A stretch of DNA of 64,000 bases from Escherichia coli (lineage in GTDB: Bacteria > Pseudomonadota > Gammaproteobacteria > Enterobacterales > Enterobacteriaceae), in assembly GCF_003334315.1 (NCBI RefSeq), contig NZ_QOWR01000012.1. One strand, written 5' to 3'. Below are positions 6,720-36,594 of this stretch, in pieces. Under the pieces are notes generated by a model, which saw nothing but the letters and a program-made list of their open reading frames with translations, had not been told where the DNA came from and made no database searches. A program made the translations under genes and the position numbers. Each line of letters opens with the position of its first letter. Within the stretch, counting starts at the first letter, position 1.

Positions 6720-7172
6720 ATGGCAGAAACCAAAATTGTTGTTGGTCCGCAGCCGTTCAGCGTAGGAGAAGAGTACCCGTGGCTGGCGGAGCGTGACGAA
6801 GACGGTGCGGTAGTCACCTTTACTGGTAAGGTGCGCAACCATAACCTGGGCGACAGCGTCAACGCATTAACCCTCGAACACTATCCGGGGATGACTGAAA
6901 AAGCACTGGCAGAAATTGTTGATGAAGCGCGTAACCGCTGGCCGCTGGGGCGCGTCACGGTGATTCACCGCATCGGGGAATTATGGCCGGGCGATGAAAT
7001 CGTTTTTGTCGGTGTCACCAGTGCGCATCGCAGCAGTGCGTTTGAAGCCGGGCAGTTTATTATGGATTATCTCAAAACCCGCGCACCGTTCTGGAAGCGC
7101 GAAGCCACGCCGGAAGGCGACCGCTGGGTTGAAGCCCGGGAGAGCGATCAGCAGGCGGCAAAACGCTGGTAG
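6720..7172 (+). CDS. moaE: Molybdopterin synthase catalytic subunit MoaE
   Basis: 150-aa ORF, start 2 nt after the moaD stop. Confidence 0.95.
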   Translation: MAETKIVVGPQPFSVGEEYPWLAERDEDGAVVTFTGKVRNHNLGDSVNALTLEHYPGMTEKALAEIVDEARNRWPLGRVTVIHRIGELWPGDEIVFVGVTSAHRSSAFEAGQFIMDYLKTRAPFWKREATPEGDRWVEARESDQQAAKRW

Positions 7173-7307
7173 TTTTTGTTAGCCGGATAAGGCACCGCTG
7201 CGTCCGGCAATTTCACCGCTCAGTACATGCGTTTACGCTGCGTCGATGCACAGCCTCATCATTTTGCAGTATCCTTAAGATATTCCTTATATCTTCAGGA
7301 GATCGTC

Positions 7308-8012
7308 ATGGACAGATTCCCACGTTCTGATTCAATCGTACAACCCCGGGCTGGCTTGCAAACTTATATGGCGCAAGTCTATGGCTGGATGACCGTTGGC
7401 TTGTTGCTGACCGCATTTGTTGCCTGGTATGCGGCTAATTCCGCGGCCGTGATGGAGCTGTTGTTCACTAACCGTGTCTTTTTAATCGGTCTGATCATCG
7501 CGCAATTAGCATTGGTTATTGTGTTATCAGCGATGATTCAAAAGCTGAGCGCAGGTGTAACGACGATGCTCTTTATGCTTTATTCGGCGCTGACGGGTCT
7601 TACGCTTTCCAGTATATTCATTGTCTATACCGCTGCTTCTATCGCCAGTACTTTCGTCGTTACTGCCGGGATGTTCGGCGCAATGAGCCTGTACGGTTAC
7701 ACCACGAAGCGCGATTTAAGTGGCTTTGGCAATATGCTGTTTATGGCGTTAATCGGCATTGTGCTGGCATCGCTGGTCAACTTCTGGTTGAAAAGCGAAG
7801 CATTGATGTGGGCAGTTACCTACATCGGCGTGATTGTCTTTGTCGGATTGACGGCGTATGACACGCAGAAACTGAAAAATATGGGTGAGCAGATTGATAC
7901 CCGCGACACGTCGAACCTGCGCAAATATTCCATTCTTGGCGCGTTAACCTTGTATCTGGACTTCATCAACCTGTTCCTGATGTTGCTGCGAATTTTTGGC
8001 AACCGCCGTTAA
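7308..8012 (+). CDS. ybhL: BAX inhibitor-1 / YccA family inner-membrane protein YbhL
   Basis: ORF 7227-8012; likely start MDRFPRSDSIVQ (234 aa); seven hydrophobic segments. Confidence 0.88.
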   Translation: MDRFPRSDSIVQPRAGLQTYMAQVYGWMTVGLLLTAFVAWYAANSAAVMELLFTNRVFLIGLIIAQLALVIVLSAMIQKLSAGVTTMLFMLYSALTGLTLSSIFIVYTAASIASTFVVTAGMFGAMSLYGYTTKRDLSGFGNMLFMALIGIVLASLVNFWLKSEALMWAVTYIGVIVFVGLTAYDTQKLKNMGEQIDTRDTSNLRKYSILGALTLYLDFINLFLMLLRIFGNRR

Positions 8013-23762: not shown

Positions 23763-24860
<1,098 letters not shown>

Positions 24861-24964
24861 AAAAAGCCCGTCCAGTGGCGGACGGGCAAACAAGGGTAAC
24901 ATAGGATCAATGAGGGTTAGAGCATATGCGTCTGTCGGCAAACAGACAGGGAAATACTTGTGCT

Positions 24965-25085
24965 GGACGTAGCGTAAACGCCTGATCCGTCCAACGGTTC
25001 GGATTTTGTAGGCCTGATAAGACGCGGTAGCGTCGCATCAGGCATCTGTTGCCGGATGCGGCGTAAACGCCTTATCCGTCCTACG
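24965..25085. repeat. REP/BIME cluster downstream of hcxB
   Basis: Multiple REP units (gcctgataagacgcggtagcgtcgcatcaggc, gccggatgcggcgtaaacgccttatccg). Confidence 0.85.
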
Positions 25086-25087
25086 AA

Positions 25088-25348
25088 TTACTTATAAATT
25101 ACCGCAGTACCGCTTAATTTATTGTTGTTGGTGGCGGAAGTGATGCTGTATCCACTGGCACCGGCTGCCGCGGCTTTCTCAGCCAGTTTCGCTTCCAGGG
25201 CATCGAGGGTGGATGCGCCATCGGCAGAAACCACGCCGATTTTATTCATGTTCTGTGCCTGGGATGCCGTTACCGGTTCCGCCGCGAACACGCCAAATGA
25301 CAGAGTTGAAAGAGCCATAGCAGCAACAACAGTATTGATAGTTTTCAT
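25088..25348 (-). CDS. ybiJ: DUF1471 (YhcN/BhsA family) secreted protein YbiJ
   Basis: 86 aa with signal peptide; paralogous to McbA. Confidence 0.88.
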   Translation of the reverse strand: MKTINTVVAAMALSTLSFGVFAAEPVTASQAQNMNKIGVVSADGASTLDALEAKLAEKAAAAGASGYSITSATNNNKLSGTAVIYK

Positions 25349-25612
25349 AATTAATCTCTCGCAGGTGATTTTTGTATAAGTGACGTTGTTTCGTCGATGT
25401 GATGAGTATCACGTTTTTTTACGAGAGATAAAATCGAAGAGAATTGACCGCCTTGTTCAAATAAATTGATTGATATCTAACCTACTGATAAACCATTTAT
25501 TTGTTGTACTTATGAACTTGTTTTATACCGCGTGGCAGTCACAGCAGCGTTAAAGGCACGGAATGACACGCAAAATACAAATTATACTCGCTATGCATCT
25601 CGCCAGTTGTAG

Positions 25613-25879
25613 TTAACGTAACTGGCTGTCTTTCGAACCTCTGCGATTATATCCTGTATAAGCTGGTTTTTGTAAATCTTTCTCCTGCTGACAATGAATA
25701 CATAAGCGCACGCCAGGAATGGCTTCCCGACGGGCCTGCGGGATGGGGGCACCGCACTCTTCACATTCATCCAAGCTTTCGCCGCGCGGAATTTCACCCC
25801 GAGCGCGGGCAATCGCATCTTCAATTGTACTGTTGATCTGTTCGTTGACGGCGTCATCGTTAGCCCAACCGGATGCCAT
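25613..25879 (-). CDS. ybiI: DksA/TraR-family C4 zinc-finger protein YbiI
   Basis: 88 aa; CxxC...CxxC motif (CEECG...CIHCQ). Confidence 0.88.
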   Translation of the reverse strand: MASGWANDDAVNEQINSTIEDAIARARGEIPRGESLDECEECGAPIPQARREAIPGVRLCIHCQQEKDLQKPAYTGYNRRGSKDSQLR

Positions 25880-25952
25880 ATCGACCTCCCCATATCAATA
25901 CTTGTACAGTTAAGTGTAGCTAATCCAGGGACGAACTCGGGCAGTTCAAGCA

Positions 25953-26630
25953 TCAGATCTCCGACCATTCCCGCAGCAGATTATGATAAAGATTAAGCAG
26001 CGACAGGATCTCTTCACTTTCGCCGTAGCGGCTTTTCAGCGACTGAATATTGTTGTCCAGTTCAAACAGCATGGCGCGCTTTTTATCATCGCGGATCATC
26101 GACTGGATCCACATAAATGATGCCACTCGTACGCCGCGGGTTACGGGTGTCACGCAATGCAGGCTGCTGGAGGGATACAACACGAGATCGCCTGCCGGGA
26201 GTTTTACCCGATGTTGTCCGAAGGTGTCATTAACGACCAGTTCGCCGCCGTCGTAGCTTTGTGGATCGCTTAAAAACAGCGTGGCAGAAAGGTCAGTACG
26301 CATCCAGCCGTTTTGTGGATGGCTGCGTACTGCGCCATCCACATGGAAACCATAGGTTTCATTGTTCTGATAGCGATTAAACAGCGGCGTGGAAAGGGTA
26401 CGCGGCAAGGCCGCGGCAAAGAATAAAGCATGTTGGTTAACCGCGTTCAGCACCTCATTTTGCAGGGCGGCGTATAACGTGCTGCGGGTGTCGACCTGTT
26501 GATTGTTCTTAACTTGCGCACCTTGTGCGCCGGTGGTGACGCGTCCATCCACCCATTCGGCTTGTTCCAGTTGTTCGCGAAAACGAGCGACGTCCTGTGG
26601 CGATAACACGCCGGGAATGTGGTACATCAT
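25953..26630 (-). CDS. ybiX: PKHD-type Fe(II)/2-oxoglutarate hydroxylase YbiX
   Basis: ORF 25953-26666; likely start [10 protein letters not shown] (225 aa). Confidence 0.85.
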
Positions 26631-26671
26631 ACAATTTCTCCAAAAAGTGGGGCCTGCGCCCCACATCTGAA

Positions 26672-28954
26672 TCAGAAATGCATATTGGCTGTGAGCAAGA
26701 AGGTTCTTGGCTCGCCCGGGTGATAACGGTAGCCGCTCTTGTTGATTGAGGCGACGTAATCGGTATCAAACAGGTTGTAAACGTTTAGCTGGAAGTCGAG
26801 ATTGCGATTAACTCGATACCCCAGTTTGGCATCGGCGACCCAGTAACCTTCGGTAAACGCTGGCGTTCCCACCGCGCCGTCTGAACCTTTATGCATACTG
26901 CCGATATAGCGTGCGCCCGCGCCAACAGAGATATCGTCGGTTGCCTGATATTGGCTCCATAAGGTGAAGGCGTGCTCCGGGGTATACGGCAGCGATGAGG
27001 AACCATCCTGGGCAACATCTTTGCCGTTTTTGATGGTTGCTTTTTGCTGGGTATAGCCGCCAATCACCTGCCACGCGGGAGTGATATTCCCGGCCACGGA
27101 TATCTCATAGCCTTCGACGCGTTTCTTACCGTATTGCGAGTAAGTTCCGTCATCATTTTGCTCAACTTCATTTTCGATATCAGTGCGGAACAGCGCGGCG
27201 GTGAGCAACAGACGTTTATCCAGAACCTGCCATTTGGTGCCAATCTCGCTGGTGTTGGCTTTTTGCGGTTTAAAATCGGTGCGGTTGGCACTGTTACCGC
27301 TGCCAGACTGCGCAAGGGCGAAGTTGTTGCCGCCCGGAGGCTGCTGGGAAACGGCATAGTTAATATAGACATTGCCGTTTTCCGTCAGGTGATACAGCGC
27401 CCCGGCTTTCCAGTTCATCAGATTGCCCGACTTGGCGGTGTCGACGGTGGTGACCGGAGAACCTTTTGCCACACCAGTTGGGCAGGTGATGGCACCGCGT
27501 CCGCTGCCGCCGCAGGCGGTGGCACTGTCATATTCAGTATGATAATTATCCAGACGGATCCCGCCGTTCAGCTCAAAATCACGGGTGATTTGCAGCGTAT
27601 CAAAGGCGTAAATTGCGAAGGTATCCGTCTGACCATTGGCGTTTGCGCCGTTGCGCGTCAGGCCGCCGGGATGAATGCTGCTGTCAGGATGATAAATATT
27701 TACCGCGGGTAACGTCACCGGATTAACGCCGTAGTTAGTCTGCGTTTCACGGGTAAATTCCACGCCGGTACTGACATCATGACCGATAGAACCGGTATAG
27801 AACGTCGAGGTCAGGTTGGTCTGGTTGGTGAGAATTTTATTACTCACATCTTTGGTATTCGCCGTGCGTGACCAGGTCCAGCTATTCACATCGCTGGTGG
27901 GCTGAGTAATATTCGACGCCCCGCCCATAATCGCCGTCATCAGGTAATCCTGCTTTACGCGCGACCAACGGGTAGTATTGCGAATGGTGGTGTTATCGTT
28001 GATGTCGTGCTCAAAACGCATGGTGGCGGTGTCGGTGGTCGAATCGTCGTAATCGGAATCCGTGCCGTAAAAGTTATGAGTATCAACTTTTCCGGAATGA
28101 TTCAGGGCCGCCGTTCCCGCAGATGGGGCAGAATAGCCCGGCAAACCGATGGTCGGAATGCCGCCGTCTGGCGTGTTGTGCTGGGTGACATGCAGATAAT
28201 TAAGATACAAACGATTCGCTGTACCAAGGCCAAAAGCGACAGAAGGGGCGACGCCGTAACGCTCATTTTTGACTTTGTCGCGTCAGGCATCGTGCGTTTT
28301 TTCGCCCATTACATTCAGGCGCACCGCGGTGGTATCACCAATGACCTGATTGACGTCCAGCGTGCCGCGGCGGAACCAGGCGCTGCCAATACTGGCGGAG
28401 GCGTCAATGCCGGAATCATTGCGCGGCTGCTTGCTGATCATATTGATCGAGCCTGTCGGTGCGCTGCGCCCGTAGTCGGTGCCGGACGGCCCTTTAATCA
28501 CTTCGACCTGCTCGGTATTGAAGGTGTCGCGCGAGACGCTGCCGATATCGCGAATGCCATCAATATAAATACTGTTAGAGGTATCGGCACCACGCATATA
28601 AATGGCGTCGCCAGTGGTGGAGTTACCGTTCTCACCCGCAAAAAACGCACCCACGCCGGGGACGTTTTTGAGCGCGTCGGTAAGGTTGGTTGCGCCCTGA
28701 TCTTTAATCACTTGTTCAGAAATTACCGTCATCGTGCGGGTAGTATCCGCTACCGGACGCGAGAATTTCGGATCGGCAGATTGTTGTGGCGCATAAAGCG
28801 AAGGCGTTGATGCTTCGACAACCAGCGTGTCATCCGCGTTAGTTTGCTCTTCGGCGGCGAGTGCCTGAGCCACAGGCGTGATGCCAATACAAAGACCGGC
28901 AAAGAACGTGAGCGAATGAAATTGTCTGGCAGGGAAATTGCGATTGTTTTCCAT
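26672..28954 (-). pseudogene. fiu: TonB-dependent catecholate siderophore receptor Fiu, interrupted by an in-frame TGA at 28283-28285
   Basis: Two same-frame ORFs (28283-28954 and 26672-28210) separated only by a TGA codon; the total span equals one 760-codon reading frame; signal peptide and plug domain lie in the upstream piece, the beta-barrel in the downstream piece. Confidence 0.85.
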
Positions 28955-29057
28955 TTTGCAGGTGACTTTTTCTTATATGTTGAAATTTTCACTGCCACGA
29001 GAAAGCCTCTCTGCGGATGCGATGCCACTGTTAATCCCGTGATAGTGCTCGTGAAAG

Positions 29058-29082
29058 TGATAATAATTTTGATAAGCATTAT
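29058..29082. promoter_or_regulatory. Fur box in the fiu promoter
   Basis: gataataattttgataagcattatc, close match to the GATAATGATAATCATTATC iron box. Confidence 0.8.
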
Positions 29083-29218
29083 CACTTGGAGCGATTTTCT
29101 ATCACCCATTGCGCGAAAAAGAAATACATTTATTTACATTGAGTTCATATTTGATGTTTTTTGATTACAAAACAGACGAAAACTGCATCCAGAGGCGAAT
29201 GCAGTTACGTTGGTGGGG

Positions 29219-29479
29219 TTATTTGTAGATGGTTGCAGTACCGAACATCTGGTCATTTCCGCCTGCGGAATTAATGACATAACCTTTCGCGCCTTGTTCG
29301 CGCGCTTTTTCTGCCAGTTTATCCTCCAGATCGCTTAGGTTTGATGCGCCAGTTGCCGAAACGGTACCGGCGGGCCGTAGCTGACCGCTGTCCAGGTTAC
29401 TCATCGGTTGCGCGGCATAAGCCGTGAGAGAGATTCCGCTCAGGACGGTGGCAATCAGTAGTGTGAGGCACTTTTTCAT
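29219..29479 (-). CDS. mcbA: DUF1471 periplasmic protein McbA (YbiM)
   Basis: Start MKKCLTLLIATVLSG (86 aa); signal peptide. Confidence 0.85.
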   Translation of the reverse strand: MKKCLTLLIATVLSGISLTAYAAQPMSNLDSGQLRPAGTVSATGASNLSDLEDKLAEKAREQGAKGYVINSAGGNDQMFGTATIYK

Positions 29480-36478: not shown

Positions 36479-36594
36479 TTAGATATATTGATAAGAACAA
36501 TTCTTATTTATCTGCTCGCCAGGAATTTTCGGAATAAATATGCTTTTGCATAATTCGATATATAAAGACGGTGTAGAGGAAAAGTAGCGAGAAA

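What the first reader, a model, noticed from the sequence alone, without database searches (positions are those of the whole stretch)
25088..29479. Two DUF1471 paralogs (ybiJ, mcbA) flank the fiu-ybiX-ybiI block
ybiJ and mcbA encode similar 86-aa secreted proteins of the YhcN/BhsA stress and biofilm family, on the same strand on either side of fiu, ybiX (Fe/2OG hydroxylase) and ybiI (zinc finger). Together with the Fur box this hints at an iron and envelope-stress cluster formed by local duplication.
Basis: inference. Interest (0 to 1): 0.25.

Follow-up and report, generated by a model that had tools for sequence, protein, structure and literature searches.

The report
Old DUF1471 paralogs bracket fiu block
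Two small secreted stress proteins of the same family (YbiJ and McbA) do sit on either side of an iron-uptake gene block in this E. coli window, but they are known genes that duplicated long ago and are regulated separately, so the arrangement is ordinary.

Summary
ybiJ (25088-25348) and mcbA (29219-29479) are 86-aa DUF1471/PF07338 paralogs on the minus strand. They share 47% identity with no gaps (E 1e-22) and bracket fiu-ybiX-ybiI. A Fur-box cluster lies upstream of fiu.

The duplication is ancient: third codon positions are 30% identical and the flanks show no homology. YbiJ, McbA and the distant BhsA are about equally far apart (43-49%), their branching order is unresolved, and YbiJ+McbA gets only 11-20% bootstrap support. 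So a local duplication is possible but not shown.

In 53 Enterobacteriaceae species genomes, 19 keep the order mcbA-fiu-ybiX-ybiI-ybiJ. About 32 have mcbA-ybiI-ybiJ, with deletion scars showing repeated loss of fiu(-ybiX).

Only fiu has a conserved Fur box. The upstream regions of mcbA, ybiI and ybiJ look like background. In the literature, fiu, ybiX and ybiI are in a Fur iModulon, ybiJ is acid-induced, and mcbA is repressed by McbR.

All of this is annotated and mostly published, so interest is low.

Side notes: fiu in this window carries a private nonsense codon. The ybiJ 3'UTR sRNA ZbiJ shares an ACCCUCAU motif with the 3'UTRs of bhsA (BhsB) and yhcN, and mcbA lacks it.

The parts
25088..25348 (-). 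ybiJ, 86-aa DUF1471 protein: signal-peptide-like N-terminus (MKTINTVVAAMALSTLSFGVFA|AEP) plus one PF07338 domain
   Evidence: ORF, RefSeq annotation, NCBIfam NF007611 173 bits, Pfam PF07338 1.2e-17
29219..29479 (-). mcbA (ybiM), 86-aa DUF1471 periplasmic protein: signal-peptide-like N-terminus (MKKCLTLLIATVLSGISLTAYA|AQP) plus one PF07338 domain
   Evidence: NCBIfam NF040473 174.5 bits; Pfam 3e-19
29182..29205 (-). hairpin (ACTGCAT..ATGCAGT) followed by a T-rich run just after the mcbA stop; probable mcbA terminator, which would make mcbA monocistronic
   Evidence: sequence. The same CTGCATC...GATGCAG hairpin is seen downstream of the mcbA-position gene in Enterobacter and Lelliottia loci (output). 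Termination itself is inferred.
29053..29089 (.). cluster of overlapping Fur-box-like 19-mers upstream of fiu
   Evidence: 4-6 mismatches to the Fur consensus. It overlaps a promoter-like site at 29105-29078. It is conserved at 3-5 mismatches in all 19 fiu-bearing species loci, against a background mode of 8-9.
26672..28954 (-). fiu, catecholate siderophore TonB-dependent receptor; interrupted here by an in-frame TGA at 28283-28285 (codon 224), plus G36E at 28848
   Evidence: translation, comparison with HS30-1 and MG1655, NCBIfam NF007349 on the N-terminal 223 aa
25953..26630 (-). ybiX, PKHD-type Fe(II)/2OG hydroxylase, partner of fiu
   Evidence: NCBIfam NF003972 519.8 bits; annotation
25613..25879 (-). 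ybiI, DksA/TraR-family C4 zinc-finger protein; the only gene that always lies between the two DUF1471 genes in relatives that have both
   Evidence: NCBIfam NF008243 160.5 bits; synteny survey
24858..24954 (-). ZbiJ, Hfq-associated sRNA from the ybiJ 3'UTR, with terminator hairpin at 24866-24887
   Evidence: MG1655 annotation mapped onto the window, terminator scan, fold z -5.3, 82-91% conserved across genera, PMC8175672
24961..25085 (-). REP elements (BIME) inserted between the ybiJ stop and ZbiJ; part of it matches Rfam naRNA4
   Evidence: direct repeat D1, RF02564 78.4 bits at 25011-25081, absent from the non-Escherichia loci

Best explanation
ybiJ and mcbA are two long-diverged members of the Enterobacteriaceae-restricted DUF1471 (YhcN/BhsA/McbA) family. 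Each encodes a roughly 64-residue single-domain protein behind a 22-residue Sec-type signal peptide. Each is its own transcription unit with its own regulation: ybiJ is acid-induced and carries the ZbiJ sRNA in its 3'UTR, and mcbA is repressed by McbR and ends in its own terminator-like hairpin. Between them lies a separate Fur-controlled unit, fiu-ybiX, with ybiI probably read through from the fiu promoter. The order rlmF | mcbA-fiu-ybiX-ybiI-ybiJ | ybiB is inherited from an early Enterobacteriaceae ancestor. It persists by synteny, and fiu(-ybiX) has been deleted repeatedly. The duplication that produced the two genes predates the Escherichia/Enterobacter split. It may have been local (about even odds) but left no detectable trace. 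The neighbourhood is therefore a historical juxtaposition, not a co-regulated iron and envelope-stress module. Shown here: identities, paralogy, synteny, deletion scars, Fur-box distribution. From the literature: the regulators. Inferred: export to the periplasm, transcription-unit boundaries, and ybiI read-through.
For: Paralogy: 47% identity, E 1e-22; PF07338 in both. Age of the duplication: ungapped nucleotide identity 49.8% and third codon positions 29.9%; the flanks are not homologous. The only DNA repeat left is 25 nt at the two 3' coding ends (D5). Orthologue groups for YbiJ, McbA and BhsA are each monophyletic (84-99% bootstrap), but the order among them is unresolved. Clade consensus identities are 46.5, 48.2 and 49.4%. 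Synteny: of 53 Enterobacteriaceae species loci anchored on ybiI, 19 have the full five-gene order (Escherichia, Citrobacter freundii complex, Silvania, Leclercia). About 32 have mcbA-ybiI-ybiJ, and Salmonella has ybiI-ybiJ only. Fiu is 77-90% identical across these genera, in line with its neighbours, which fits vertical descent. Deletion scars with different end points: E. albertii keeps the last 17 nt of ybiX; C. werkmanii and C. youngae ATCC 29220 lack 3.2 kb; Citrobacter sp. Awk 4 lacks 2.36 kb and keeps ybiX. Regulation: a conserved Fur box is found only at fiu. The Fur-1 iModulon contains fiu, ybiX and ybiI. ybiJ is among the top acid-induced genes together with bhsA and yhcN. McbR represses ybiM/mcbA. 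McbA evolves faster than YbiJ: median 64% against 80% identity to E. coli.
Against: Proximity itself argues for some local origin. With 10 DUF1471 genes on 4.64 Mb, about 0.085 pairs are expected within 4.4 kb by chance (own calculation from coordinates). The family also has another adjacent pair, yjfN-bsmA. No expression data were generated here. ybiJ was induced in the same acid data set as the Fur-regulated fhuF, so indirect iron-linked effects on ybiJ are not excluded. Transcription-unit boundaries were not measured. The phylogeny rests on about 60-86 sites and neighbour-joining only.
Confidence: 0.8

Rival explanations
1. A local duplication created the two DUF1471 genes around the iron genes. 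The five genes work as one iron and envelope-stress cluster under common, Fur-linked control.
For: The five genes share a strand and are compactly spaced. There is a Fur box in the cluster. ybiI is co-modulated with fiu and ybiX. The five-gene order is conserved in four genera.
Against: No Fur box upstream of mcbA or ybiJ in any of 53 species. Neither gene is in the Fur iModulon text. Their known regulators differ: acid for ybiJ, McbR for mcbA. mcbA is followed by its own hairpin with a T-run. fiu-ybiX is lost in about 60% of species while both DUF1471 genes stay.
Confidence: 0.07
2. Dispersed origin. mcbA is a copy of a bhsA-like gene that landed next to rlmF independently of ybiJ. The two neighbours are then not products of a local duplication at all.
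For: Both proteins score higher against the BhsA model than against each other's model: 116 and 101.5 bits against 80.6 and 74.3. McbA+BhsA has the highest bootstrap of the three pairings, 29-40%. It also has 5 outgroup-polarised shared sites against 1 for YbiJ+McbA. YbiJ is closer to YhcN (44%) than McbA is (34%). ybiJ, bhsA and yhcN share a 3'UTR motif that mcbA lacks in all loci examined.
Against: Support is weak and could reflect rate differences, since BhsA evolves slowly and McbA fast. Landing 4 kb or less from another family member by chance is unlikely (expected about 0.085 pairs). The 3'UTR motif could simply have been lost by mcbA.
Confidence: 0.4
3. Insertion model. The ancestral state was mcbA-ybiI-ybiJ, and fiu-ybiX was inserted between the paralogs in the E. 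coli lineage.
For: The first loci examined (Citrobacter, Huaxiibacter, Enterobacter, E. albertii) lack fiu-ybiX at this site.
Against: The full order is present in Escherichia, Citrobacter, Silvania and Leclercia, and fiu-ybiX-ybiI-ybiJ in Klebsiella, with Fiu identity tracking the neighbours. fiu-less genomes keep ybiX remnants. End points differ between lineages.
Confidence: 0.05

Closest known systems
DUF1471 / YhcN / BhsA-McbA family (Pfam PF07338), as described by Eletsky et al. 2014 (PMC4092069)
   Same: Same domain, size, signal peptide and C-terminal GTAxIYK motif. The family is restricted to Enterobacteriaceae. That paper already treats YbiJ and YbiM/McbA as two of about twelve paralogous subfamilies that arose by repeated duplication, and notes that Salmonella lacks YbiM.
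   Different: Nothing differs in kind. The paper cites yjfN-yjfO and yhcN-ycfR-like as adjacent pairs but does not mention the ybiJ...mcbA neighbourhood. The cross-genus synteny and the repeated loss of fiu were worked out here.
BhsA (YcfR), multiple stress resistance protein
   Same: It is as close to YbiJ (46.5%) and McbA (43%) as they are to each other. It is acid and stress induced together with ybiJ. Like ybiJ, it carries a 3'UTR-derived sRNA, BhsB.
   Different: It lies about 330 kb away, next to comR and ldtC. It is 85 aa and much more conserved across genera, 84-92%.
yjfN-bsmA adjacent DUF1471 pair
   Same: Two family members on the same strand in one neighbourhood. It is the textbook example of local duplication in this family.
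   Different: Those two are directly adjacent (149 bp apart) and only about 30% identical. ybiJ and mcbA are never adjacent in any genome examined: ybiI always intervenes.
Fiu-YbiX / PiuA-PiuC / CciT-CciO receptor-dioxygenase pairs
   Same: The flanked block is the E. coli member of a Fur-regulated TonB-dependent transporter plus 2OG/Fe(II) dioxygenase pair that is syntenic across Proteobacteria (PMC12004947).
   Different: That pair predates the DUF1471 family and is independent of it. Outside Enterobacteriaceae it has no DUF1471 neighbours, because the family does not occur there.

Membership tests
DUF1471 (PF07338, YdgH/BhsA/McbA-like) | Significant match to the Pfam domain over its full length | tested here: met
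   YbiJ residues 34-86 match model 1-55/55, 1.2e-17. McbA residues 34-86 match model 1-55/55, 3e-19.
DUF1471 (PF07338, YdgH/BhsA/McbA-like) | Small single-domain protein of about 90 aa with an N-terminal Sec signal peptide (periplasmic) | tested here: inconclusive
   Both are 86 aa with a basic N-terminus, a hydrophobic core and an A-x-A site at residues 20-22 (sequence). No signal-peptide predictor was available. Localisation comes from the literature only.
DUF1471 (PF07338, YdgH/BhsA/McbA-like) | Restricted to Enterobacteriaceae/Enterobacterales | tested here: met
   All named homologues of YbiJ, McbA and BhsA are from Enterobacteriaceae genera, apart from one unclassified 'Proteobacteria bacterium' MAG. 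YbiI loci from Pseudomonas, Halomonas and others carry no DUF1471 gene.
YbiJ equivalog (NCBIfam NF007611) and McbA (NF040473) | Score above the curated whole-protein cut-off of the specific model and below it for the sister model | tested here: met
   YbiJ scores 173 (cut-off 110) on its own model and 80.6 on the McbA model. McbA scores 174.5 on its own model and 74.3 on the YbiJ model. Note that both also exceed the cut-off of 90 for the BhsA model (116 and 101.5).
Local (tandem) gene duplicates | Each is the other's closest paralog | tested here: not met
   YbiJ-McbA 46.5%, YbiJ-BhsA 46.5%, McbA-BhsA 43%. Bootstrap for YbiJ+McbA is 11-20%. Polarised shared sites: 1 for YbiJ+McbA against 5 for McbA+BhsA.
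Local (tandem) gene duplicates | Homology extending into flanks, or direct adjacency in some lineage | tested here: not met
   No flank similarity. In 52 loci that have both genes, at least ybiI separates them.
Fur regulon member | Fur box in the promoter region, conserved in orthologous promoters | tested here: met
   This applies to fiu only: 3-5 mismatches in 19/19 loci, window site 29053-29089.
Fur regulon member | Fur box upstream of ybiJ and of mcbA | tested here: not met
   Best matches have 7-8 mismatches (ybiJ) and 7-10 (mcbA) in 53 loci. This equals the background from 1,000 random 210-nt windows, mode 8-9.
Fur regulon member | Derepression in a fur mutant or under iron limitation | not testable with these tools
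   Literature only. The Fur-1 iModulon lists fiu, ybiX and ybiI. ybiJ and mcbA do not occur in that paper's main text.

The most novel reading that the evidence does not exclude
The four closest DUF1471 genes may have duplicated together with a 3'UTR small-RNA module. ybiJ (ZbiJ), bhsA (BhsB) and yhcN all keep an exposed ACCCUCAU(U) element just upstream of their terminators. All three are among the top acid-induced genes. Their 3'UTR sRNAs could therefore be paralogs with a common seed that form a shared post-transcriptional arm of the acid and envelope stress response. mcbA, the McbR-controlled neighbour, has lost the element. The two genes that flank fiu would then differ not only in protein sequence and regulator but also in whether they deliver an sRNA.
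Probability: 0.4. Interest if true: 0.45.

Novelty: already known. Interest (0 to 1): 0.12.

Why it matters
It matters little as a discovery. Both genes, their family, their paralogy and the Fur control of fiu-ybiX are annotated or published. The useful outcome is negative and clarifying: the neighbourhood should not be read as an iron and envelope-stress operon or regulon. The cross-genus survey adds a tidy picture of a conserved five-gene order in which the siderophore receptor module is lost repeatedly. That fits with fiu being a gateway for catechol-cephalosporins such as cefiderocol, and with the nonsense allele seen in this window. The side observation of a shared 3'UTR motif in ybiJ, bhsA and yhcN is a small, testable lead for sRNA biology.

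Tried and rejected
(1) Insertion hypothesis. After I thought fiu-ybiX had been inserted between tandem paralogs in E. coli. The 80-locus survey and the deletion scars reversed this.

(2) The Fur consensus with 3 or fewer mismatches found nothing in the window. I had to relax to 6 or fewer and use cross-species conservation. A 5-mismatch hit at 25979-25997, inside the ybiX 3' end and upstream of ybiI, is not conserved and is deleted in E. albertii, so I did not treat it as a site.

(3) I tested whether the two fiu mutations signal selection. The background against HS30-1 is 15 SNPs in about 63 kb, so 2 in 2.3 kb is not significant (Poisson p about 0.1).

(4) DNA-level search for duplicated flanks around ybiJ, mcbA, bhsA and yhcN: none between ybiJ and mcbA.

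(5) Neighbour-joining with bootstrap, clade consensus identities and polarised-site counts did not resolve the YbiJ/McbA/BhsA trichotomy. No maximum-likelihood program was available.

(6) The representative search (417 family members at E 0.001 or better) was not developed into a larger tree, because about 60 informative sites would not resolve the question.

(7) A literature search for 'ZbiJ' by word start matched an author name. Lord et al. 2014, which describes the McbR site, is not held, so the McbR operator could not be placed in the window.

(8) Solved structures: only distant relatives, 2NOC and 2MA4. Structure prediction was judged unnecessary.
Full report
WHAT IS THERE

The window is E. 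coli chromosome. Stretch 24500-30000 matches all 5,426 complete E. coli genomes searched, and strain HS30-1 differs at only two bases in 11.5 kb. RefSeq annotation transferred to the window gives the following genes, all on the minus strand:
- ybiJ 25088-25348
- ybiI 25613-25879
- ybiX 25953-26630
- fiu 26672-28954
- mcbA 29219-29479

They lie between hcxB/ybiB and rlmF/ybiO. The finding's coordinates run exactly from the ybiJ stop to the mcbA start.

CHECK OF THE OBSERVATION

- YbiJ and McbA are both 86 aa and align without gaps at 40/86 identities (47%), E 1e-22.
- Both carry one PF07338 domain over residues 34-86.
- Each passes its own NCBIfam model: 173 and 174.5 bits against a cut-off of 110.
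- Both start with a basic, hydrophobic, A-x-A stretch of 22 residues typical of Sec signal peptides. This is by inspection only; no predictor was available.
- YbiX is a PKHD-type Fe(II)/2OG hydroxylase and YbiI a DksA/TraR C4 zinc-finger protein.
- Overlapping Fur-box-like 19-mers at 29053-29089 sit on a promoter-like site upstream of fiu.

HOW OLD IS THE DUPLICATION, AND WAS IT LOCAL?

I extracted all ten DUF1471 genes of E. coli K-12.
- YbiJ, McbA and BhsA form a near-equidistant trio: 46.5, 46.5 and 43% identity. YhcN is close to YbiJ at 45%.
- Both window proteins score higher against the BhsA profile than against each other's.
- At DNA level, ybiJ and mcbA are 49.8% identical. Third codon positions are 29.9% identical, which means saturation, and the flanks show no similarity. 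The only repeat left is 25 nt at the two 3' coding ends (D5).
- A neighbour-joining tree used orthologues from 8-12 genera per group. Each orthologue group is monophyletic at 84-99% bootstrap, but the order among them is open: YbiJ+McbA 11-20%, McbA+BhsA 29-40%, YbiJ+BhsA about 10%.
- Clade consensus sequences are 46.5-49.4% identical pairwise. Sites polarised with YhcN give 5 for McbA+BhsA against 1 for each alternative.

It does not discriminate, because BhsA, about 330 kb away, is just as similar.

Proximity does hint at a local origin. About 0.085 pairs within 4.4 kb are expected by chance for ten genes on 4.64 Mb (my calculation). The family also has a directly adjacent pair, yjfN-bsmA (PMC4092069). 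But no lineage shows ybiJ and mcbA adjacent. I put a local origin at roughly even odds.

SYNTENY

Context look-ups for orthologues were followed by a scan of one genome per GTDB species anchored on YbiI. Loci were classified by tblastn with the E. coli proteins. This gave 53 Enterobacteriaceae loci.
- 19 have rlmF | mcbA-fiu-ybiX-ybiI-ybiJ | (hcxB) ybiB. These are E. coli, E. whittamii, Escherichia sp. E1V33, many Citrobacter of the freundii complex, Silvania and Leclercia.
- About 32 have mcbA-ybiI-ybiJ without fiu-ybiX. These are E. albertii, Enterobacter, C. amalonaticus, C. sedlakii, C. werkmanii, Lelliottia, Huaxiibacter and Pseudenterobacter.
- Salmonella has ybiI-ybiJ only, in line with PMC4092069.
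- Klebsiella michiganensis has fiu-ybiX-ybiI-ybiJ, with a flavin reductase gene where mcbA would be.

Fiu identity to E. coli (77-90%) tracks that of YbiO, RlmF and YbiB, as expected for vertical descent.

The fiu-less genomes carry deletion scars with different end points:
- E. albertii keeps the last 17 nt of ybiX.
- C. werkmanii and C. youngae ATCC 29220 lack 3.2 kb relative to sister species.
- Citrobacter sp. Awk 4 lacks 2.36 kb that removes fiu but leaves ybiX.

The five-gene order is therefore ancestral and fiu(-ybiX) has been lost repeatedly. My interim idea that fiu-ybiX was inserted between tandem paralogs is rejected.

McbA evolves faster than YbiJ, with median identity to E. coli of 64% against 80%. 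Outside Enterobacteriaceae, YbiI orthologues (64-74% identical) have none of these neighbours.

REGULATION

I scanned 210 nt upstream of each gene in all loci for the Fur consensus.
- fiu has a site with 3-5 mismatches in 19 of 19 loci.
- mcbA (7-10), ybiX (7-9), ybiI (6-10) and ybiJ (7-8) do not differ from 1,000 random windows, whose mode is 8-9.
- ybiI has no Fur box in species that lack fiu. Its membership of the Fur-1 iModulon with fiu and ybiX (PMC10164565) is therefore most simply explained by read-through from the fiu promoter. This is an inference.
- ybiJ and mcbA do not appear in the main text of that paper.
- ybiJ is among the 20 most strongly induced genes at pH 4.4, together with bhsA and yhcN, and was singled out as exclusively pH-dependent (PMC10746267).
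- mcbA is repressed by McbR/YncC, and its overexpression causes excess colanic acid (Zhang et al. 2008 as cited in PMC4092069 and PMC7705038).
- mcbA is followed by a conserved hairpin and T-run.
- ybiJ has a 264-nt upstream intergenic region and its own terminator after ZbiJ.

MECHANISM

Each gene most likely makes a small periplasmic or envelope-associated DUF1471 domain protein that acts in a stress response. The biochemical activity is unknown for the whole family. A structural resemblance to RcsF has been noted for YbiJ (bioRxiv 10.1101/2025.02.11.637708). Together with the colanic-acid phenotype of McbA, this makes modulation of Rcs envelope signalling a reasonable but unproven idea. Only distant relatives have solved structures, 2NOC and 2MA4.

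The flanked fiu-ybiX pair belongs to the widespread receptor-dioxygenase module PiuA-PiuC / CciT-CciO (PMC12004947). That module is older than the DUF1471 family and independent of it.

VERDICT

It is unsupported on the claim of a functional iron and envelope-stress cluster made by local duplication. The genes, the family, the paralogy and the regulators are all known. Novelty is 'already known' and interest is low.

SEEN IN PASSING

(a) fiu nonsense allele. fiu in this window has GGA to TGA at codon 224 (28283-28285), plus G36E at 28848. None of 5,419 complete genomes shares the 101-mer around the stop. With 15 SNPs per 63 kb against HS30-1, two changes in fiu are not significantly enriched.

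(b) ZbiJ and a shared 3'UTR motif.
- The ZbiJ sRNA region downstream of ybiJ is more conserved across genera (82-91%) than the coding sequences (73-77%).
- ZbiJ and BhsB share TAACCCTCATT(G/A)AT. Their alignment score is 18 against 8.5 +/- 1.6 for shuffles, reached by 0 of 500 shuffles.
- yhcN has ACCCTCAT directly after its stop codon.
- The 8-mer occurs five times in 326 kb of fetched E. coli DNA, and three of those are in these 3'UTRs.
- It is unpaired in the predicted folds.
- It lies downstream of ybiJ in 51 of 53 loci and never downstream of mcbA.
- The paper that named these sRNAs does not mention yhcN or a seed, and in the passages read it does not relate ZbiJ to BhsB.

(c) REP elements. 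The REP pair between ybiJ and ZbiJ matches Rfam naRNA4 and is specific to Escherichia.

Noticed in passing
window 28283-28285 (and 28848): fiu carries an in-frame TGA at codon 224 (GGA in HS30-1 and MG1655) and a G36E change, so the receptor is truncated in this strain. No complete E. coli genome of 5,419 with a match has the exact 101-mer around the stop. Against HS30-1 the background is 15 SNPs per 63 kb, so two changes in fiu are not significantly enriched.
   Followed up: yes
window 24858-24954 (-); L002 9304-9403; L003 7803-7855: The 3'UTR sRNAs ZbiJ (ybiJ) and BhsB (bhsA) share TAACCCTCATT(G/A)AT (0 of 500 shuffles reach the alignment score). The yhcN 3'UTR starts with ACCCTCAT. Three of the five occurrences of this 8-mer in 326 kb of E. 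coli DNA lie in these 3'UTRs, and the motif is unpaired in predicted folds. It is conserved after ybiJ in 51/53 species loci and is absent after mcbA in all. The three may be paralogous sRNAs with a common seed. The naming paper does not mention yhcN or a seed.
   Followed up: partly
window 24859-24951: The ZbiJ region is more conserved between genera (82-91% to Citrobacter, Enterobacter, Salmonella, Klebsiella) than the neighbouring coding sequences (73-77%).
   Followed up: yes
window 24961-25085 (Rfam hit 25011-25081); ybiE 24926-24985 (+): REP elements sit between the ybiJ stop and ZbiJ. One pair matches Rfam naRNA4 (RF02564, 78.4 bits). They are present in E. coli and E. albertii but absent from the other genera, so the ybiJ-ZbiJ spacing was expanded in Escherichia. 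The annotated 19-aa ybiE ORF overlaps this region on the other strand. These REPs explain the median of 11 matches per genome.
   Followed up: partly
L015, L032, L045, L065 compared with L016, L043, L020, L058: fiu(-ybiX) has been deleted independently in several lineages with different end points. E. albertii keeps 17 nt of ybiX. C. werkmanii and C. youngae ATCC 29220 lack 3.2 kb. Citrobacter sp. Awk 4 lacks 2.36 kb and keeps ybiX without fiu.
   Followed up: yes
L066-L093 (match at about 7001-7264): YbiI orthologues of 64-74% identity occur in Pseudomonas, Halomonas/Billgrantia, Morganella, Pantoea and a Desulfovibrio MAG, without fiu, ybiX or DUF1471 neighbours. That is unusually high conservation for an uncharacterised 88-aa zinc-finger protein across such distances, and could reflect strong constraint or horizontal transfer.
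   Followed up: no
window 36522-36529: HS30-1 has an IS1 element between rhtA and dps, flanked by an 8-bp duplication of this window sequence. The window lacks the insertion.
   Followed up: no
window 26647-26664 (-): A GC-rich hairpin followed by TTTTTGGAGA lies between the fiu stop and the ybiX start, and the T-run leads into the ybiX ribosome-binding site. It could be a partial terminator that sets the fiu:ybiX ratio.
   Followed up: no
window 25349-25393 (-) and L003 about 7495-7538: ybiJ-yhcN nucleotide similarity (61% over 144 nt, E 1e-6) starts about 45 nt upstream of the start codons. These two acid-induced paralogs may therefore share 5'UTR sequence. No such similarity was seen for mcbA.
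   Followed up: no
L011 3457-4071: In Klebsiella michiganensis a flavin reductase gene (PF01613) occupies the position between rlmF and fiu where mcbA lies in E. coli. This is a plausible iron-related replacement and was not examined further.
   Followed up: no
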